Shown piece by piece: positions 541-13,670 of a stretch of DNA of 13,914 bases. Every line of letters starts with the position of its first letter. Position 1 is the stretch's first letter. Under the pieces are notes generated by a model. The model worked only from the letters and a program-made list of their open reading frames with translations, was not told where the DNA came from and made no database searches. Location of the stretch: the NCBI RefSeq assembly GCF_006345805.1, contig NW_021826044.1, forward strand, positions 1 through 13,914, in the 5' to 3' direction. The translations under genes and the position numbers were made by a program. The DNA comes from Octopus sinensis. Lineage: Eukaryota.

Positions 541-1010
541 TATTTTCGAAACTAGTAACAAAGCAATTTTGGCAGGAGGGAAATTTCACTTAAAAATGGT
601 ACTTTATTATATATTATAAATGGTACTTTATTATGTGGAGGCGCAATGGCCCGATGGTTAGGATCGTAGGTCGTAGGTCGTAGGATCGTGGTTTCGATTC
701 CCAGACCGGGCGTTCTGAGTGTTTATTGAGTGAAAACACCTAAAAGCTCCACGAGGCTCCGGCAGGGGGTGGTGGCGATCCCTACTGTACTCTTTCGCCA
801 CAACTTTCTCTCACTCTTTCTACTGTGGGCCTGCTCGCTTAGCCAGCGGGGTGTCGTCATTTGAAGGCTAAAAACAATGCGAAGCGCATTGTGACCAGCG
901 ATGTATAGCAACATCTGATAGTCTGGTCGGTGACGTGATCATGTGATTATATATTATATATGGTACTTCCGTTCAACCTCCGGAAAGAATGGAAGACAAA
1001 GCTTATCAAA
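541..1010 (-). mobile_element. Old degenerate family A SINE remnant, split by the 635-945 SINE
   Basis: 961-1002 (TGGTACTT...CCGGAAAGAATGGAAGACAAAG) and 545-582 (TTTCGAAAC...GCAATTTTGGCAGGAGGG) loosely match the reverse complement of the family A centre and tail. Confidence 0.4.
635..945 (+). mobile_element. tRNA-derived SINE, family B
   Basis: Head GGAGGCGCAATGGCCCGATGGTTAGG...GGTTTCGATTCC (A and B boxes) and a GTGATC-type tail. Full-length match to the inverted copy at 4888-5197. Flanked by a 23-bp direct repeat, 606-628 and 946-968 (1 mismatch). Confidence 0.9.
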
Positions 1011-1532
1011 GAAAATTAGTTTTCAGTTTGGAAAACAAAACACCGGGGTAAATTCTATGACATAAGCATGTTGCTCGAAGCTCCACCGATTTTACCAACC
1101 AGCCAACCAGCCAGACTGAAAACTGTCACCAGTGACGAAAGTAACAAAATGGCGTCGATTCAACAATTGATTCGAGACTGTCTTTTTTACAAGTTTTATT
1201 CACAATGAAGATTTAGTTATTGAATAATGCTATTACACAATAAATGTAAAATAAGATAAAATTACACTGGAATCTGAACTGTGATAATCTTTAATTGGTT
1301 GACTTGGTAAGAGTAATTTGAAGACATCTGACACGTTAGTCATTGGTTGTTTGTAAACATGAACTACAGACGGCCGTCGTTTTAACTCATCGTTGAAAAC
1401 GGAATCCTCCCGAATAGCTATTTTCATAGAAAATCAATTCAGATACTTGAAAGCCTCATTGTAGGTGAAATACAAATGTAAATTGATTCTTTTTGTGCTC
1501 CTAAAGTGCAGAATATCAGGAAAAGAGTTTCT

Positions 1533-1939
1533 GGATCTTTTCGGTTTGAACGGTAGTTTTTCTAGCGATGTCATATGAAATTGTCACCCATAATTATGAC
1601 CCTAGAATCGATCTATTGCATTTCAATCTGTTTTAGGGTTAGGGTTAGGGGGGTATCTTTTTTTCTTCACAAATGTAAATAAATCCAATCTGTTTTTTAA
1701 ATGAGGGACATATTCATACGGCACAGAGTGTTGTTTACCTCAATGGACGTCAGTGATTGGCTGAAATTGCAGAAATTGAAGAAAAAACAACAACAAATAT
1801 CTTACAAACCATAGAATTTTCTCAATAAAGCCAAGAGAAAAAGATGTTTTATAAACACATTCTACCAGTATACGAAGTTTAAAATCTTTTAGTTACCTAG
1901 AAATTATGTTAAAAACTGCTGTTCAAACCGAAAAGATCC
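1533..1939 (+). mobile_element. Merlin-like non-autonomous DNA transposon (MITE), copy 1
   Basis: TIR GGATCTTTTCGGTTTGAACRGYAGTTTTT at both ends and a perfect 8-bp TSD GAGTTTCT (1525-1532 / 1940-1947). GG termini with an 8-bp TSD fit the Merlin/IS1016 superfamily (assignment inferred). Strand is arbitrary. Confidence 0.9.
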
Positions 1940-2313
1940 GAGTTTCTTGGCAGACTGCTTCCTCTTTTGTTGAATGTTTCTCAGTGAAGACTAACCAAGC
2001 TTCCTTATAGAATAAAAAAAAGTACAGATCTGCTTCTAAATTAAAAAAGGTCATAAATTAAACTAGATCCATAGTGGATAGCTTAATTTGCATGCTTGTG
2101 CATTTGGCGGTTTGTCATTAATTAAGCAATATCTATAACACAGCATAAATCATAAAAAGTGAAATAAATTTGAATATGACAAAGCCTCAAGTGTTTAAAA
2201 ATATTAATATAAACACATTTTTTCTATGCTGTTGATGGATGAAAAAAGTGGGATGGTGTCTCGTGACGGACCGATTCACGATTTACTGACTGCTCCTCAA
2301 ATCAATGTCCCAT

Positions 2314-2737
2314 GGATCTTTTCGGTTTGAACGGTAGTTTTTTTAAATAATTTCCACGTAACTAAACACTTTAAACTTCGTATACTGGTAGAATGTGTTT
2401 ATAAAACATCTTTTTCTCTTGGCTTTATTGAGAATATTCTATAGTTTGTGAGATATTTGTTGTTTTTTTCTTCAATTTCTGCAATTTCAACCAATCAATT
2501 ACGTCTATTGAGGTAAAAAAAACATTCTGTGCCGTATGAATATGTCCCTCGTTTAAGAAACAGGTTGGGTTTATTTACATTTGTGAAAAAAAAAAGATAC
2601 CCTTCCCCCCACCCCTAACCCAAACCCTAACACTAAAACAGATTGAAATGCAATAGATCGATACTAGGGTCATAATTATGGGTGACAATTTCATATGACA
2701 CCGATTGAAAAAACTGCCGTTCAAACCGAAAAGATTC
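2314..2737 (-). mobile_element. Merlin-like MITE, copy 2, inverted relative to copy 1
   Basis: Same TIRs, perfect 8-bp TSD TGTCCCAT (2306-2313 / 2738-2745). The interior is the reverse complement of 1533-1939 with scattered substitutions and indels. Confidence 0.9.
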
Positions 2738-4868: not shown

Positions 4869-4887
4869 CATATGTATATTTATATAT

Positions 4888-5197
4888 CACCGTGATCACC
4901 GTGACCGACCAGGCTATCAGATGTTGCTATACACCGCTGGTCACAATGCGCTTCGCATTGTTTTATTCTTCAAATGACGCCACCCCGGTGGCTAAACGAG
5001 CAGGCCAACAGAAGAAACAGTGAGAGAAAGTGTGGCGAAAGAGTACAACAGGGATCGCCACCACCCCCTGCCGGAGCGACGTGGAGCTTTAGGTGTTTTC
5101 GCTCAATAAACACTCAGAACGCCCGGTCTGGGAATCGAAACCGCGATCCTACCACCGCGAGTCCGCTGCCCTAACCACTGAGCCATTGCGCCTCTTC
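4888..5197 (-). mobile_element. tRNA-derived SINE, family B
   Basis: Reverse complement of 635-945 with an intact head (GAGGCGCAATGGCTCAGTGGTTAGGGCAGCGGACTCGCGG) and a (CACGGTGAT)2 tail. TSD ATATTTATATAT (4876-4887 / 5198-5209). Confidence 0.92.
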
Positions 5198-5223: not shown

Positions 5224-6026
5224 CAGGGATGTGCCACCTGAAGGTAGGCAGTGCCTACCCTGAATAAAATAGATCAATAGTAACCTTTTCCTTTTATGGC
5301 AAAATGTGCACCTAATTCAATAAAATCATGAAGGTTACTCTGATAACTATGCAAAAAATGCAAATTATTTTGTTGTTTTGTAGATTAGATTGGCATAATT
5401 TGCTCCTGCCTTTCAGTCCCAGTATTAAAGCTACGTACAGAACTGCTGTAGTACACATGCTGATGGTGGTTCAATGGCCCAGTGGTTAGGGCAGCGGACT
5501 CGCGGTCATAGGATCGCGGTTTCGATTCCCAGACCGGGCGTTGTGAGTGTTTATTGAGCGAAAACATCTAAAGCTCCACGAGTCTTCGACAGGGGATGGT
5601 GGTGATCCCTGCTGTGCTCTTTCACCACAACTTTCTCTCACTCTTACTTCCTGCTTCTGTTGTACCTGTATTTCAAGGGGCCGGCCTTGTCACTCTCTGT
5701 GTCACGCTGAATATCCCCGAGAACTACGTTAAGGTTACTCGTGTCTGTGGAGTGCTCAGCCACTTACACGTTAATTTCACGAGCAGGCTGTTCCGTTGAT
5801 TCGGATCAACCGGAACCCTAATCGTCGTAACCGACGGAGTGCTTCCATTCCAGTACACATGCTGCGTACATTCCTACAACAACGTTTTCTTTACGCGATA
5901 TAAAGGCAGAAGTAAACCTGCCTTCAACTCAGTCACACGCCTGTGTTTCGCTTTCTTTTTTGTGTGTTTTACTACATAAACGTCACCAACTGCCTACCCT
6001 GAGTGATTACTAACGGCACCTACCTG
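5224..6026. mobile_element. hAT-like MITE (about 400 bp) interrupted by a SINE
   Basis: Termini CAGGGATGTGCC and GGCACCTACCTG (imperfect TIR). 8-bp TSD ATGTATAT (5216-5223) / ATGTATAC (6027-6034). Subterminal TGCCTACCCTGA near both ends and a hairpin GGTAGGCA-G-TGCCTACC (5243-5259). Confidence 0.65.
5463..5851 (+). mobile_element. SINE with the family B head and a different 3' half (family B2)
   Basis: The first ~185 bp align with the family B 5' part, after which the sequence diverges. TTCCA-type tail and a perfect 13-bp TSD AGTACACATGCTG (5450-5462 / 5852-5864). Confidence 0.9.
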
Positions 6027-7232: not shown

Positions 7233-7672
7233 GGAGATTTGTATGTTTTGCCTTATGTATGTATTCTCGTGCATGTACTTGCATGACTAGACTTGCTCAT
7301 ATATACTTAAATGATAAACTTCTGGAAAGTTTTACAGATTTTTACAGTTCCAGTGATGGACTGGATCTGTAGTCTTCGAATTAGCTTTCTCCTTTCTGGT
7401 TTTGAGAAGCCTAATATCTCAAGGCTAGTATTTAGGCAGTATGTATGTATGTATGTATTCATATGTATACCCACGCCTAAACATTATATATATATATATA
7501 TTTACTATTAGTTATCGCCATACTAATATGGCATTCTTATAAAAATAAGAATAAAGCTGTCCGCTTATTAGCTCCATGAGGCCATCGCCTTAAGTTAGCT
7601 ATTTGATACACCAAACTGTATCCATAACCTTTGAACAAGGGAGGTCAGTCGCTCCACACTACTTGGCCGGCA

Positions 7673-7714
7673 GCTACAGACGCGTTTCGGGGTATTGCCC
7701 CTTTTCAATGCAGC
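7673..7714 (-). ncRNA. Type I hammerhead ribozyme, U3-A8 core variant, minimal palindromic stem III
   Basis: Minus-strand RNA: GCUGCA (stem I), UUGAAAA (7708-7702), GGGG-CAAUA-CCCC (stem II), GAAA (7688-7685), CGCG, UC, predicted cleavage at 7679/7678, then UGUAGC (stem I partner). Stem I extends into a rod spanning 7626-7762. Confidence 0.85.
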
Positions 7715-7803
7715 GTAGCCAGACCAGTAGGTGTCGCTTCTGACAATCTCTGTTCAAAGGTTTTATTTACCTAGCTTCGGTGGAATACATCCACTTGTTT
7801 TCA

Positions 7804-7868
7804 ATAATAGAAATATTAAAATTACTAAGTCTCTTAGAGAGACTTAGTAATTTTAATATTTCTATTAT
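7804..7868. repeat. Perfect 31-bp inverted repeat with a 3-nt spacer
   Basis: ATAATAGAAATATTAAAATTACTAAGTCTCT (7804-7834), TAG, then its exact reverse complement (7838-7868). Confidence 0.97.
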
Positions 7869-7871
7869 ATA

Positions 7872-8107
7872 TTTACTCTTTTACTCTTATTTGTTTCAGT
7901 CATTTGACTGCGGCCATGCTGGAGCACCGCCCTTTAGTCGAGCAAACCGACCCTAGGAGTTATTCTTTGTAAGCCTAGTACTTATTCTATCGGTTTCTTT
8001 TGTCGAACTGCTAAGTTACGGGGACATAAACACACCAGCATCGGTTGTCAAGCGATGTTGAGGGGACAAACACAGACACAAACATACACACCACCACACA
8101 CACCAAT

Positions 8108-8141
<34 letters not shown>

Positions 8142-8240
8142 ATATACACATACACATACACACATATATATATGTATATACATACACACCACACAATATA
8201 TATATATATATATATACATACATATATACGGCATATATAT

Positions 8241-8277
<37 letters not shown>

Positions 8278-8565
8278 GTCGTATATATGTAATATATATA
8301 TATATATACATACATATATACGGCATATATATATATATATAATATATATAATATATATATGGTCGTATATATGTATATATATACATATATATATATTAAC
8401 ATATATACGACGTCTTCTTTCAGTTTCCGTCTACCAAATCCACTCACAAGGCTTTGGTCGGTCCGAGGCTATAGTAGAAGACGACTTGCCCAGGGTGCCA
8501 CGCAGTGGGACTGAACCCGGAACCGTGTGGTCGATAAGCAAGCTACTTACCACATAGCCACTCCT
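7872..8565 (-). mobile_element. tRNA-derived SINE, family D, with an expanded internal (TA)/(TG) microsatellite
   Basis: Minus-strand head AGGAGTGGCTATGTGGTAAG...GGGTTCAGTCCC, then ACCCTGGGCAAGT (CORE-like start). Internal simple repeat at about 8070-8408, 3' body 7890-8070, (AGAGTAAA)n tail. Confidence 0.85.
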
Positions 8566-9043
8566 AAAGAATACATACACAAATACACGTTACATTCGTG
8601 CTCGCATATTTAACACATATTTAATACATCGAACATTAAACTAAAGCCCAAACTAGAAATATATATACGTGAGCGCTGTGCAGAAAAGAAACCGATATTA
8701 AGCAGTTGAATGGCCAGATAATATTTTTCATTTTTCTGGCAAGTTTCAGGAGACAATAATACGACGAAATATTGAAACAAAGTCCAAGAACCTAGACTTT
8801 GTGTTTTCTCACCCTCCATTATCTTCACTAACAATTTACTACAAGCTTTTGTGGTTGTTGTTGCTGTTATTTTTGTTGTTATTGTCTTGTTTCTTTGCCT
8901 TTCTTTTACATTTTCTTTATTCGTTTTTTTTTCTTCCTTCTTCTTCTTCTTCGAAAATCTGAAATATGATACTTCGACGTTGTTAAACAGTAGACAATGA
9001 GAGCTAAAGAACACGGATGTTGTTTTGAGGACGTTATTGTGTC

Positions 9044-9051
9044 GTTTTGTC

Positions 9052-9084
<33 letters not shown>

Positions 9085-9852
9085 GTCGCTTTTGCTGTTT
9101 TCATCTTTTTTTTCTTTTGTGGTTGGTTGCTTTGTTGATGTTGTTAATATTGCTGTATACGTCCTCTTGTGGTTACTACGGTTATTGTTTTAGTAAATAT
9201 GTTTGCTGGTGGCGATGGTGGTGGTGGTGGTGGTGGTGGTGGTGGTGGTGGTTGTAGTGTTGGTGGTTGTGGTGGTAGTGATGGTAGTAATGGTGGTGGT
9301 GGTTGTGATGGTTGTGTTGGTGGTTGTAGTTGTGGTGGTGATGGTAGAGAAGGTGATGTGGTGGTGGTGGTGGTTGTAGTGTTGGTGGTGGTGGTGGTGG
9401 TGTGATGGTAGTAATTGTGGTGATGGTGGTGGTGGTGGTGGTGGTGGTGGTGGTGGTTGGTGGTGGTGGTGGTAGAGAAGGTGATGTGATAATGGAGGTG
9501 GTGGCTTTGGTGGTAGTGGTGGTGGTGATGGTGGTGGTTTTGGTGGTAATGATGGTGGTAGAGATGGTGATGGTGGTAATGGTGGTGGTGTTGGTGGTGG
9601 TAGTGATGGTGGTGATTGTGGTGGTAGTTGGGGTGGTGCTGATGGTAGTGGTGCTGGTAGCGGCAGCGGTGACGACGGCGGTGACTCGGTGGCAGCGGCA
9701 GTGATGGTGATTGTGGTGGTGGTGGTGGTGCTAGTAGTGGTGGTATTGGTGGTGGTAATGGCGTTTTCATTGTCGGTTTTTTGTTATTGTCGTCATCGTC
9801 GTCATCGTCATCGTCGTCATCGTCATCGTCATCATCGTCATCGTCGTCGTCG
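9044..9852. repeat. Graded trinucleotide low-complexity tract (GTT)n, (GGT)n, (CGT/CAT)n
   Basis: GTT repeats at about 9044-9090, GGT/GAT/AGT at about 9207-9758, CGTCAT at about 9790-9852. Confidence 0.95.
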
Positions 9853-10037
9853 ACTCATTTATGTTTCATAGCGGGATCAATGGACGAGACTTACTCTCAA
9901 TGGCGACACGATTGATCTACTTCCGGTGCCAGTGAAAAGCTGTTCCCAACGTCTAGACGTCTAAATAGATTACGTTCACAGTGTAACAACACCAACAACA
10001 ATAAAAACAATATGCCTCTGTCTCATATTGTGTGTTG

Positions 10038-10054
10038 TATGTATATATATATAG

Positions 10055-10096
<42 letters not shown>

Positions 10097-10256
10097 ATAT
10101 AATATATATAATATATATATAAATTTTCCATGCTGACGTTAAACATAGGATAATTCATTCACCTATTTATATATATTATATATATATATATATATTGTAC
10201 ATATATTATACATACATCCATATATATAATATATATATATATATTATATATATATA

Positions 10257-10295
<39 letters not shown>

Positions 10296-10300
10296 CATCC

Positions 10301-10332
<32 letters not shown>

Positions 10333-10585
10333 GTATGTATGTAGAGAATATATATATGTGTATATATATATATACACAAAACATGAATTCATGCATGTAT
10401 TAATGTTGCGCACACATATATTCATACATGTATATTTGTGTATGTGTACTCATATATATGTACATATGTATGTACATGTACGTATATATATGTGTGTGTG
10501 TGTGTTTATGTCTATAGATATGTGTCGATATGTCAATATATCTATATATCTATCTATATATACATACATATACGCATATATATGT
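10038..10585. repeat. (TA)n/(TATG)n compound microsatellite
   Basis: Long imperfect TA-rich tract with a short unique spacer at about 10121-10165. Confidence 0.93.
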
Positions 10586-11373
10586 GGTCCAGAGAACAAG
10601 GTGTCATCATTCCACTTTTTCCTTCTTTGTACGACCACACCTCGAATACTGCTGTCCCTTGTGGTCTCCCCATGCAAAACAAAGCATCTCGAAGATTGAA
10701 TCACCCCAGAGGCTACTCACTAAACGAATTGAAAGGCATGACTGATCACGATTACTGGGACCGCCTTAAAGCCCTGAAACTCTACTCTCTAGCGCCGCCG
10801 CGAGCGGTACATCATTTGCACGATGCGGAGAATATACCTATTTCTTTACTACCCTCAAGGGGCTAAACACAGAGAGGACAAACAAGGACAGACATAGGTA
10901 TTAAGTCGATTACATCTACCCCAGTGCGTAACTGGTACTTAATTTATCGACCGAATACACCGCCAGCATTCCCCCAAATGACCTGATCATTGGTTTTAAG
11001 GTTCATCCAAGGCTGAGACCACGGGCCATACGTCCCCTGCCCAATTCGGAATCACAGCTTATAGGTACACTGCGACATAAATTTCTTTTCCTCAACAGGC
11101 CCTGTCCTGTTTAACATTGTCCCAAAACTGATCAAAGAGGACATGGATCCCATTACCTTTAAACAGAGTCTGGACTGGACAAACTTCTACAACGAATACC
11201 AGATAAGCCACCCATACCCGCATACAACTCAACAAGAACTCACTACTTGAATGGATCATAATACCACAAAACCTAACTTTAAAAGGATTTAGATAATCCT
11301 ATCAGGTGGTGCTATTAAGTTAGACATGGCCTGGACCAATCTCTGGTCGAAACATATCTAAGTTTTATCTAAG

Positions 11374-11375
<2 letters not shown>
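10586..11375 (+). mobile_element. 5'-truncated CR1-type LINE fragment (C-terminus of reverse-transcriptase ORF2 plus 3' UTR), frameshifted
   Basis: Translation across frameshifts gives FVRPHLEYCCPLWSPH...KIESPQRLLTKRI.GMTDHDYWDRLKALKLYSL.RRRERY...GPVLFNIVP...FKQSLD...IPDKP, typical of the CR1 ORF2 C-terminus. 3' stem-loop GACCA-ATCTC-TGGTC and a TATCTAAGTT tandem tail. Confidence 0.92.
10839..10952 (-). mobile_element. 5'-truncated family A SINE inserted in the LINE
   Basis: Reverse complement matches about 3493-3593 (GGTCGATAAATTAAGTACCAGTTACGCACTGGGG...TTGTTTGTCC). TSD GAATATACC (10830-10838) / GAATACACC (10953-10961). Confidence 0.88.

Positions 11376-11376
<1 letters not shown>

Positions 11377-11441
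<65 letters not shown>
11377..11441. repeat. Pure (TA)n microsatellite
   Basis: About 32 uninterrupted AT units. Confidence 0.97.
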
Positions 11442-11445
<4 letters not shown>

Positions 11446-11959
11446 AAATCCTCGGGTATAGTCGCCCTTGAGTATAAAACGCAGGGGATTTTTAAGGGGC
11501 TGTACTACTGAAAAACCTAAACCGTGTGTATAATACGCACCCCTTCTCTAACTTGAGTCAAGGAGGTCTATATAACGCCCTTGGTTTGTAAAACTGTGTA
11601 CGTTAACGTCCTTTATTATTATTGTATATATAACATAATGCAAACGTGTAACTTTTTTGTGCATTTTGTTTGCAGAAAATAAAGAAATAACAGTAATAAC
11701 GTTTAATAAATGTTGCTTCCTGCAAGTTATGGATGATTCTTTTATGACTTCATTGCTTTCAGGCTTAGCTTAAGGTATTTTCGCGCTCGACATCAAAAAA
11801 TGCGTCCGAATAAAAATTGACGGACAGCAGATAGAGACTCGGACATTGCTTAGAAAATATTTTTCATTTTTAACCTCGTATATAGTACCTTTAAATTCAA
11901 CCTCGTATGTTTGACCTTTAAATTTTAGGGGGAAAATGCGGATTATACTCAGGATATAC
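11442..11959. mobile_element. Tc2/pogo-like MITE inserted in a (TA)n tract
   Basis: Left end TA|CCTTAAATCCTCGGGTATAGTCGC; right end TGCGGATTATACTCAGGATATAC (degenerate TIR of the CCGTAAAT type). Subterminal repeats of GTATAA.ACGCA, with TA runs on both sides. Confidence 0.65.
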
Positions 11960-11994
11960 ATATATATATATATAATATATATATATATAATATA

Positions 11995-12025
<31 letters not shown>

Positions 12026-12026
12026 A

Positions 12027-12085
12027 GCGCAGGAGTGGCTGTGTGGAAAGTAGCCTGTTTACCAACCACAGTGTCTTCTGCTATA
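12027..12085 (+). mobile_element. Internally deleted head fragment of a family D SINE
   Basis: GCGCAGGAGTGGCTGTGTGGAAAGTAGCCTGTTTACCAACCACA is joined directly to GTGTCTTCTGCTATA. Compare the reverse complement of 8468-8565. Confidence 0.8.
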
Positions 12086-12097
12086 TATATATATATA

Positions 12098-12345
12098 AGT
12101 TATGGTTGTTATCACCTTAATGAGGTTGTTTCATACAGAACATTGTTACTACGCTTTTTAACCCCAGGAGGACACCTCCAGCTAGTTAACGACACACTAT
12201 CTGTGTCCGTTATATTGCAAACATGGGGCCGTACAACTCCCATCTAGCGGTGACAGAAACCAGTAGACTAGTTGCATTCTGGGCATGACCCTTCATCGAT
12301 ACTGGTTGTTTTAAGTTCCTTATATTCCGTTTGTCCACTGACTCA
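12098..12345 (-). mobile_element. Second short structured element with a hammerhead-like motif, ending at (TA)n
   Basis: Several hairpins (GGAGG-ACA-CCTCC, GACAC...GTGTC, ATGGG...CCCAT), a hammerhead-like motif at 12258-12307 and a 3'-end motif shared with 7501-7868. Confidence 0.5.
12258..12307 (-). ncRNA. Divergent or decayed type I hammerhead-like motif
   Basis: Minus-strand RNA: AACCAGUA, UCGAUGA, A-GGG-UCAUG-CCC-AGAAU, GCAA-C-UA-GUC, UACUGGUU. Perfect 8-bp stem I and palindromic ACUAGU stem III, but the core deviates at positions 3, 4 and 13. Confidence 0.55.
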
Positions 12346-12353
12346 TGTATATA

Positions 12354-13071
12354 CGCAGTTTGATCAATAAGTATCCGCGCTGTTGTCATAGTGACAAAGC
12401 TAAAGCACAGAGAGTGAAGCCGCTTGGTACAGATTGACCTTGGACTCTGCTGTGCATGCGCATTAAGTTTTAACGTTCTAGCTCACTTCCGCTATTTACA
12501 GCAGTGCTTGGAAGGAACGTGTGTAGCGTGTGATCGTCGCATTGACCATGACAGAGAAAGTTCTCATGGCGATACTTGCTCAGAGGCTTTCACAAAGTTG
12601 CAGGAAGTGTATGGAGAGGAGTGTATGAGCCGCACACAAGTGCACGTGTGTTTCAGAGGTTTCCAAGATGACAGAAAAAATGTCGATGTTAACGAATGTT
12701 CTGCTGCAACCAGCAGAACTGAGAAACACATCGCAGATGTGCGTACAGCTATGAAGGGAAATCGTCGTATCACCATCCCTGAGTGATCGGAGGGTGTGCA
12801 GGTAAGTTAAAGTTCAGTTCAGTGCAATAGCACTGAAGATTTGGGCGAGACGCGTGTCTACCATGTTTGTGCCAAAACTACTTTCAGTTGACCAAAAAGG
12901 CAATTGTGTCGAGAACGATGAAAAGTTTTTGAAAACTGTGCGTAAGCCCCTGAGCAGGTATCGCCAAGCTTTTAGTAAAATTTGATGCAAATTCTCTGCT
13001 CATCTTTCTGTCATTGTCAATGTGACGATCACTCGCTACACACGTTCCTGATAGTTATTGATCAGACCACG
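12354..13071 (+). mobile_element. Mariner-derived non-autonomous foldback element (718 bp)
   Basis: TA TSD (12352-12353 / 13072-13073). TIRs CGCAGTTTGATCAATAAGTATC and (reverse complement) CGTGGTCTGATCAATAACTATC, enclosing transposase remnants. Confidence 0.92.
12548..12935 (+). pseudogene. Mariner transposase N-terminal (HTH) remnant with stops, deletions and no catalytic domain
   Basis: MTEKV...GDTCSEAFTKLQEVYGEECMSRTQV...F..FQDDRKNVD...TSRTEKHIADVR...NRRITI.E...EDLG.RRV..FVPKLLS.DQK (WVPHEL-equivalent)...ENDEKFLK. It ends before the first catalytic Asp. Confidence 0.9.
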
Positions 13072-13234: not shown

Positions 13235-13670
13235 AATATTTATTTCGAATTTTGGCAGAATTTTGGGATGGGGAATTTAGTCGACTACATCCACTAACTA
13301 CTTGACTGTGGAGGCACGTGGCTTAGTGGTTAGGGTGTTGGACTCATGATCGTAAGGTTGTGGTTTCGATTCCTGGACCGGGTGACACGTTGTGTTCTTC
13401 AGCAAAACACTTCATTTCACGTTGCTCCAGTCCACTCAGCTGGCAAAAATGAGTAATTCTGCGACGGACTAGCGTCCCATCCAGGTGGGGAATTCCTACG
13501 CCATTGAAACCGGGAAACCGGCCCTTATGAGTCTAGCATGGCTCGAGAAGGAACATTTATTTTATATTTTTTTAACTACTTGACTGAAATGAAAAGTTTA
13601 CTTCAGTGGCATTTAAAGTCAGAAAGAAATTCCGCTAAGCATTTTGTCCGGCACACTGACGATTCCTCCA
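13235..13670 (-). mobile_element. Old family A SINE split by a younger SINE
   Basis: With 13309-13586 removed, the reverse complement reads GAATCGTCAGTGTGCCGGACAAAATGCTTAGCGGAATTTC...GATGTAGTCGACT...TGCCAAAATTCGAAA, matching the family A head and tail. Confidence 0.7.
13309..13572 (+). mobile_element. Full-length CORE-like tRNA-derived SINE (family C variant)
   Basis: A-box TGGCTTAGTGG, B-box GGTTTCGATTCC, CORE-like domain and a TTTAT-type tail. Perfect 14-bp TSD TAACTACTTGACTG (13295-13308 / 13573-13586). Confidence 0.92.

What the first reader, a model, noticed from the sequence alone, without database searches (positions are those of the whole stretch)
7486..12345. Two unrelated ribozyme-bearing elements share one 3'-end signature at (TA)n: candidate microsatellite-targeting retroelement system
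Seen: elements 7501-7868 and 12098-12345 show no obvious overall similarity, yet they share a layout. Both carry a minus-strand type I hammerhead or hammerhead-like motif with a palindromic stem III (ACGCGU; ACUAGU). Both predicted cleavage sites lie about 170-180 nt from the 3' end. Both end in a small hairpin (GCCATA..TATGGC; ACCT..AGGT) overlapping the motif GGYGATAAC (plus strand GTTATCGCC 7511-7519; GTTATCACC 12108-12116), about 10 nt before a (TA)n run. Inference: the hairpin plus GATAAC may be the cis signal recognised by a shared RT/endonuclease (Penelope-like GIY-YIG type) that primes in TA microsatellites, with the ribozyme releasing the template RNA. The autonomous partner is not in this window.
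Basis: partly seen in the sequence, partly recalled or inferred. Interest (0 to 1): 0.8.

Follow-up and report, generated by a model that had tools for sequence, protein, structure and literature searches.

The report
Related retrozymes with Penelope two-end footprint
The two elements are not unrelated: they are distant cousins of one protein-free jumping repeat that carries a predicted self-cutting RNA motif and ends at two fixed points in TA repeats, a pattern that suggests it is copied by a Penelope-type retrotransposon enzyme.

Summary
Both elements and both hammerhead-like motifs are real, but 'unrelated' is wrong. Element A (363-bp unit, young, 1,417 exact ribozyme matches) and element B (358-bp unit, old) align end to end (53% identity; z=12, 0 of 300 shuffles) and share one fold with compensatory changes. 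They are subfamilies of one non-LTR retrozyme, so the shared 3' layout is inherited. GATAAC is not the shared signal: B has it in 3 of 52 segments, it is 3 nt off register with A, and it is absent near the ends of five autonomous Penelope-like families sampled. Copies end at two fixed sites, about 174 and 238 nt after the predicted cut. In 52 position-ordered A loci, 28 of 29 classifiable head-to-head insertions use one site per arm: the Penelope 'tail' footprint, also seen in Neptune-type elements of this genome. A's core is the known U3-A8 variant. A Tx1-like LINE lands in A at one site (30 of 30). The partner enzyme, self-cleavage and circular RNA are not shown. The scan reported family A, its footprint and its LINE before on other DNA; the A-B homology was not in the notes I saw.

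The parts
7506..7834 (-). Element A, main arm: 329 nt of the 363-nt retrozyme unit, from inside the 'tail' through the hammerhead to fixed end E1
   Evidence: 98.5% to family consensus; arm map
7830..7868 (+). Element A, inverted arm (39 nt) ending at fixed end E2; with the main arm it makes the 65-nt palindrome 7804-7868
7673..7714 (-). Type I hammerhead of A: stem I 7709-7714/7673-7678, U3-A8 variant core 7702-7708, stem II 7689-7701, palindromic stem III; predicted cut between 7679 and 7678
   Evidence: coordinates; fold; covariation across A, A2, A3; U3-A8 variant described in PMC4209133; cleavage not tested
7517..7532 (-). 6-bp hairpin just 5' of E1, conserved in A, A2, A3 and B with two double-sided changes
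7506..7516 (-). GATAAC plus 5 nt to junction E1 (aligns with AACAAC, not GGTAAC/GATAAC, in B)
7498..7505 (+). Left copy of an 8-bp target-site duplication, at the edge of (TA)n 7485-7501
7869..7876 (+). Right copy of the 8-bp target-site duplication
12098..12307 (-). Element B: 5'-truncated single arm (about 210 nt of the 358-nt unit) ending at E1
   Evidence: 87% to B consensus; end map
12260..12305 (-). Decayed type I hammerhead of B (family core C3-G8); predicted cut between 12266 and 12265; this copy has core changes and is likely dead
12111..12126 (-). Position of the family's pre-E1 hairpin in B; two of its five pairs are broken in this copy
   Evidence: 40 of 50 B segments keep 4 or 5 of 5 pairs
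12082..12097 (+). (TA)n target abutting B's E1 end

Best explanation
A and B are a young and an old subfamily of one ~360-nt non-coding hammerhead repeat (a non-LTR retrozyme) whose copies end at two fixed sites in TA tracts, likely because a Neptune-type Penelope-like RT/GIY-YIG enzyme copies their RNA in trans. Shown: common ancestry, tandem units, conserved fold, two fixed ends (E1 about 174, E2 about 238 nt after the predicted cut), one end per arm in head-to-head insertions, and the same footprint in autonomous Neptune-type elements of this genome. Inferred: tandem transcripts are cut by dimeric hammerheads (palindromic stem III) into monomers that may circularise; the enzyme nicks both strands of a TA tract and each nick primes cDNA inside the RNA, one at E1 and one at E2, on either side of the 63-nt 'tail'; the two cDNAs run in opposite directions, may pass several units, and are joined at their truncated 5' ends. 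The recognised signal is probably the folded E1-tail-E2 region rather than a GATAAC word. Which Penelope-like family supplies the enzyme is not determined.
For: Units of 363, 360, 364 and 358 nt (A, A2, A3, B). A vs B local alignment z=12.1 and A2 vs B z=16.0, 0 of 300 dinucleotide shuffles each; A vs reverse-complement B z=2.0. Consensus circular fold -85.2 against -22.3 +/- 4.4 for 40 column shuffles; 29 of 93 pairs with a double-sided change; each unit folds z -6.5 to -9.5 as a circle. Hammerhead covariation: U3-A8 in A/A2/A3 against C3-G8 in B, free position 7, swapped stem II pair and stem III palindrome. Ends: 79 of 86 outer ends at E1 or E2 in 52 position-ordered loci, 71 of those 79 with (TA)4 within 24 nt; of 34 two-arm loci 28 E1+E2, 1 E2+E2, 0 E1+E1, 5 with one arm elsewhere (p=5.6e-8 for 28 of 29 at even odds). 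A2 and B end at the same distances; B 35 of 44 ends at E1/E2. Autonomous RT+GIY-YIG elements with a CX4CxxC linker, intact ORFs and 97.7-100% identical copies exist; they end in (TA)n at two sites about 30-36 nt apart and 2 of 2 inverted pairs seen use one site per arm. In print: inverted copies and a tail at one end (PMC8557442); two internal RT start sites flanking the tail and extension of both strands in vitro (PMC11167929); retrozymes as PLE dependants.
Against: No sequence link to a partner: 3' regions of five autonomous families score no better than shuffles against A, A2 or B (best z=0.6). The tail is 62-64 nt against 30-40 in print and 30-36 in this genome's PLEs. The pairing rule has exceptions (A2: 9 E1+E2, 3 E2+E2, 1 other, 1 cut by the contig end among 14 two-arm loci; B: 4 E1+E2, 1 E2+E2, 5 with an arm elsewhere). 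Rfam does not recognise either hammerhead, and in a preprint 8 of 9 frog retrozyme dimers did not cleave in vitro. The consensus fold rests on four sequences, three of them 84-88% alike, and the control does not keep relatedness.
Confidence: 0.8

Rival explanations
1. A and B are solo or tandem pseudo-LTRs left by an autonomous Penelope-like element that I did not sample, not independent retrozymes.
For: The footprint is that of PLEs; only 150 of 5,029 GIY-YIG candidates were scored and five families compared; a preprint finds frog retrozymes related to pLTRs.
Against: Arms run to about 10 units with no ORF (L222; longest stop-free stretch 56-66 aa). In 186 retrozyme loci PLE protein matches occur at five distinct places; the three read and L126 are separated from the retrozyme by TA tracts or opposite orientation; L131 was not read.
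Confidence: 0.09
2. The arrays are satellites amplified at DNA level (unequal crossover or DNA circles) and the ribozyme is a relic.
For: Tandem organisation; this model is discussed for retrozyme arrays in the preprint; no RNA evidence obtained here.
Against: Dispersed short arrays on many contigs with variable 5' ends, fixed 3' ends, inversions and a target duplication; hammerhead core kept through covariation.
Confidence: 0.04
3. The Tx1-like LINE that sits in A is the mobiliser.
For: It is young and tied to A in 30 of 30 best 3' ends.
Against: It inserts into A with a 17-bp duplication at unit position 301-302, whereas A itself ends in (TA)n at E1/E2; most A loci have no LINE; its APE-RT anatomy is not known to me to give paired two-end inversions (recalled).
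Confidence: 0.04
4. One reading: unrelated elements converged on hairpin+GATAAC as the signal for a shared enzyme.
For: The 9-mer occurs twice, 0.25 expected; both lie near E1.
Against: End-to-end homology; off-register match; 3 of 52 B segments carry GATAAC; half of A ends are at E2; absent near the ends of five PLE families.
Confidence: 0.03

Closest known systems
Metazoan non-LTR retrozymes (Cervera and de la Pena 2020, PMC7229834, read part 2 of 6 and passages; Li, Clavereau and Pollet 2026, bioRxiv 10.64898/2026.07.22.740005, read parts 1 and 3 of 5 and passages)
   Same: Non-coding tandem units in the 150-450 bp range, one type I hammerhead per unit, stable self-paired circle, duplication longer than 4 bp, co-occurrence with PLEs.
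   Different: U3-A8 core in A; two fixed ends and head-to-head arms are not described there (the word 'tail' occurs 0 times in either main text); no pLTR homologue found here; expression and cleavage not shown here.
Neptune-clade Penelope-like elements and the PLE 'tail' (Craig et al. 2021, PMC8557442, passages; Frangieh et al. 2024, PMC11167929, parts 1-2 of 4)
   Same: (TA)n bias, partial tandems, inverted 5'-truncated copy, tail at one end, two internal RT start sites, hammerhead near the 3' end.
   Different: No ORF; tail 62-64 nt instead of 30-40; cut-to-end distance about 174 nt against about 65-100 nt in this genome's PLEs.
U3-A8 minimal hammerhead of Schistosoma Cercyon PLEs (Cervera and de la Pena 2014, PMC4209133, part 1 of 4)
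   Same: Same core covariation and palindromic stem III for dimer formation; also seen in two PLE families of this genome.
   Different: Here it sits in tandem non-coding units, and the homologous family B has C3-G8, so the swap happened within one lineage.
Target-specific Tx1-clade LINEs (recalled; only search listings seen)
   Same: zf-CCHC ORF1, APE-RT-zf-RVT ORF2, fixed target in a multicopy repeat, tandem stacking.
   Different: The target is a retrozyme, about 62 nt 5' of its predicted cut; clade membership not tested by a tree.

Membership tests
non-LTR retrozyme | tandem units of 150-450 bp | tested here: met
   363, 360, 364, 358 nt; arrays up to about 10 units
non-LTR retrozyme | type I hammerhead motif in each unit | tested here: met
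   73 copies with the identical intact A motif among the matches in 40 sites; 1,417 exact 23-mers genome-wide, 0 in the reversed control; covariation. Not recognised by Rfam
non-LTR retrozyme | no protein-coding capacity | tested here: met
   longest stop-free stretch 56-66 aa in unit trimers
non-LTR retrozyme | stable, highly self-paired circular fold | tested here: met
   z -7.6, -9.5, -6.5 against 60 shuffles each
non-LTR retrozyme | target duplication longer than 4 bp when present | tested here: met
   8 bp around the window copy of A; one locus only, others hidden in (TA)n
non-LTR retrozyme | self-cleavage | not testable with these tools
   needs in vitro transcription
non-LTR retrozyme | abundant linear and circular unit-length RNA | not testable with these tools
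   only contigs of runs not on record as RNA were available
non-LTR retrozyme | absence of LTR, PBS and PPT | not tested
   no dedicated search; the arm maps show no LTR-internal-LTR layout
autonomous Penelope-like element | RT plus GIY-YIG ORF within the element | tested here: not met
   none in the window or contiguous with arrays read; present in separate families
PLE insertion footprint | inverted 5'-truncated copy and a tail at one end only | tested here: met
   28 of 29 classifiable two-arm A loci; 27 of 30 two-arm loci in the best-hit set (counted by hand; 6 of its 40 loci also)
PLE insertion footprint | tail of 30-40 bp | tested here: not met
   62-64 nt in A, A2, B
pLTR derivative of a resident PLE | sequence similarity to a pLTR | tested here: inconclusive
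   none to five families; most PLE families not sampled
Neptune clade (candidate partners) | C-terminal GIY-YIG with CX2-5CxxC linker | tested here: met
   linker in L111 and L119 ORFs, Pfam RVT_1 (just under cut-off) and GIY-YIG; no tree built

The most novel reading that the evidence does not exclude
Penelope-type enzymes integrate by obligate two-site priming: one RNA, possibly a circle, is primed at E1 by one target strand and at E2 by the other, and the spacing is set by an RNA fold that has been kept for the whole A-B divergence without any sequence match to the enzyme's own RNA. The retrozyme is in turn the sole landing site of a LINE that may borrow its promoter and hammerheads to cut out its own transcript, a three-tier parasite chain (PLE, retrozyme, LINE).
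Probability: 0.35. Interest if true: 0.7.

Novelty: new member of a known kind. Interest (0 to 1): 0.42.

Why it matters
That Penelope-like enzymes copy animal retrozymes is proposed from co-occurrence and pLTR likeness, and how the inverted ends of PLE insertions form is open. Here a protein-free repeat shows the PLE footprint with a near-strict one-end-per-arm rule, and cousins only about 55% alike keep both start sites at the same distances. That narrows the cis signal to a roughly 90-nt folded region and offers natural variants (A, A2, A3, B) and young candidate enzymes for the published in vitro priming assay. It also removes GATAAC as the signal. The elements themselves are members of a described class.

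Tried and rejected
Rfam on the window and on each element: microsatellite and palindrome noise only, no hammerhead. Reading A's core as a CUG...GA core with a 5-nt insertion: rejected, since that stem I breaks in A2 while the U3-A8 register keeps it in A, A2 and A3. The 65-nt hairpin as part of the unit: rejected, it is an inversion. A look-alike small hairpin in the tails of B and of the L111 PLE family as a partner link: noticed but no alignment beats shuffles, so not used. PLE ORFs near retrozyme copies as pLTR links: three read and rejected, L131 not read. Expression: no RNA holder listed; contigs of four runs guessed to be RNA cover parts of the unit and show no clustered starts or ends, which contigs cannot show. 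No tRNA gene in the window. Census caveats: ends are alignment-defined, with windows 166-180 and 230-245 for A and 164-180 and 222-246 for B; L215/L216 and L227/L228 are each one insertion split by the LINE (each would add one E1+E2); L211 holds a duplicated insertion counted once; the script left B locus L044 unclassified, by eye it is E1 plus near-E2; duplicate loci of one site were dropped before the counts. Not in print, as far as searched: searches listed no paper on these families, on the pairing rule in retrozymes or on a LINE targeting one; Repbase and Dfam could not be searched, the preprint's supplements are closed, and I did not open supplements of PMC7229834 or PMC8557442, any of which may list these families. 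That the host is an octopus is recalled and echoed by earlier scan notes, not tested.
Full report
What is in the window. The window is a whole 13.9-kb contig of a 2.72-Gb animal genome, rich in microsatellites. On the minus strand both elements carry a type I hammerhead-like motif. Predicted cuts lie 173 and 168 nt from the TA-side ends. Rfam finds no ribozyme.

Element A. It belongs to a young family: 130 matches at 88-100% identity, nearly all 94% or more, among 40 of 1,065 candidates scored, and 1,417 exact copies of a 23-nt piece of the ribozyme, 0 in the reversed control. The unit is 363 bp in head-to-tail arrays. Sister subfamilies A2 (360 bp) and A3 (364 bp) are 84-88% alike. The window copy is a 329-nt arm (7506-7834, minus) plus a 39-nt inverted arm (7830-7868), framed by an 8-bp duplication; the long palindrome there is this inversion. 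The hammerhead core is the U3-A8 variant: with that register stem I holds in A, A2 and A3, position 7 varies freely (A, U, C), and the outer stem II pair and the stem III palindrome change in compensated fashion. This variant is described for Schistosoma PLEs (PMC4209133).

Element B. It is an old family (other copies 74-87% to the window copy; 40 of 504 candidates scored) with a 358-bp unit. Its family core is C3, U or C at 4, invariant A6 (29 of 29), free position 7, G8. The window copy spans 12098-12307 and is decayed in the core.

A and B are relatives. Monomers aligned from the cut site are collinear, 53-56% identical. Local alignment gives z=12.1 (A) and 16.0 (A2), 0 of 300 shuffles each, against z=2.0 for the reverse complement. 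A joint circular fold has 93 pairs, 62 kept in all four consensus sequences and 29 with double-sided changes, far below column-shuffled controls (four sequences only, control ignores relatedness). The hairpin before the end is homologous with two compensatory pairs. In that alignment A's GATAAC faces AACAAC in B; the GATAAC of the window's B copy lies 3 nt upstream and is a minority state (3 of 52 segments against 27 GGTAAC; 1 against 13 exact genomic matches).

Where copies end. I mapped all loci among the first 100 exact ribozyme matches on contig C1, in positional order (52 loci). 79 of 86 outer ends fall at E1 (37; about 174 nt after the cut, just past GATAAC) or E2 (42; 238 nt), windows that together cover under 9% of the unit; 71 of those 79 have (TA)4 within 24 nt. 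Of 34 two-arm loci 28 are E1+E2, 1 E2+E2, none E1+E1 and 5 have one arm elsewhere (p=5.6e-8 for 28 of 29). The best-hit set agrees (27 of 30). A2 ends at 172-176 and 235, B at about 172 and 233; B has 35 of 44 ends at these sites but fewer clean pairs and decayed flanks, and A2 has three E2+E2 loci among 14 two-arm loci.

The likely enzyme. The genome holds many GIY-YIG elements (147 matches among 150 of 5,029 candidates scored). Several families have RT plus C-terminal GIY-YIG and a CX4CxxC linker, as Neptune elements do (PMC8557442); one has intact ORFs and copies 97.7-100% identical. They end in (TA)n at two sites 30-36 nt apart, most carry hammerheads (two with U3-A8 cores), and both inverted pairs seen use one site per arm. 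In print, PLE insertions have an inverted truncated copy and a 30-40 bp tail at one end, and a purified PLE cuts and extends both strands and starts at two internal sites that flank the tail, without homology to the target (PMC11167929). The retrozyme footprint matches this point by point, apart from tail length. Against naming a partner: no similarity between the retrozyme units and 3' regions of five families (best z=0.6), no GATAAC or matching hairpin near their ends, and no PLE ORF contiguous with an array in the loci read.

Mechanism. Shown: ancestry, tandem non-coding units, conserved fold, two ends, pairing rule, TA bias. Inferred: dimeric hammerhead cutting to monomers and circles (by analogy, PMC7229834); capture by a Neptune-type protein; two-strand nicking with priming at E1 and E2; joining of the two cDNAs head to head. 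B's E1 lacks the AU run that A has, which suggests target pairing is not needed. Cleavage and expression were not testable.

A side result. A 5.35-kb LINE (zf-CCHC, APE, RT, zf-RVT) interrupts A at unit position 301-302 with a 17-bp duplication. All 30 best 3' ends read (of 93 candidates, 40 scored) are followed by that target: 28 by the rest of A and 2 by a further LINE copy. It uses A as a landing site and does not explain A's own ends.

Verdict. A real, described kind of element (non-LTR retrozyme), not a new convergent system. The value lies in the one-end-per-arm rule and in start sites conserved across about 45% divergence, which my paper searches did not find described for retrozymes. 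Earlier scan notes report family A, the two-arm rule and the LINE on other DNA; I had the two-arm result before reading them and tested the LINE afterwards.

Noticed in passing
L239:1307-6656, L240, L241; L243-L272: A young Tx1-like LINE (5.35 kb) inserted at one fixed site of retrozyme A, about 62 nt 5' of the predicted cut, 17-bp duplication, 30 of 30 3' ends read; some copies stacked in tandem.
   Followed up: yes
L111-L126, L152-L163, L170: At least five Neptune-like PLE families with hammerheads; two carry U3-A8 cores, and the L111 family has a long upstream ORF (479 aa stop to stop) overlapping the RT ORF.
   Followed up: partly
L087/L088/L099/L169 3' regions: Some GIY-YIG families (L099, L169) end at (TA)n with no hammerhead found by my pattern, only a GAAA-palindrome remnant.
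   Followed up: no
B family: Core position 4 is C in 16 and T in 12 of 29 copies; the ancestral B core may be a U4C variant eroded by CpG decay.
   Followed up: partly
window 12346-13050: Broken frames that read like a Tc1/mariner transposase (recalled likeness, not scanned) right beside element B's 5' end.
   Followed up: no
window 10581-11376: Broken frames that read like the 3' part of a LINE RT, ending in a short tandem repeat before (TA)n 11377-11441 (recalled likeness, not scanned).
   Followed up: no
window 1530-2720: Palindromic element with nested inverted arms (1557-1650/2619-2712 and 1784-1889/2364-2469, 94%) that include TTAGGG repeats; MITE-like.
   Followed up: no
window 647-940, 4880-5190, 5472-5850, 13319-13560: Several copies of tRNA-like SINE families, two of them in inverted orientation; ARAGORN calls no tRNA gene.
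   Followed up: no
L211: A complete two-arm A insertion duplicated in tandem 1.4 kb apart with identical breakpoints (segmental duplication or assembly duplicate).
   Followed up: no
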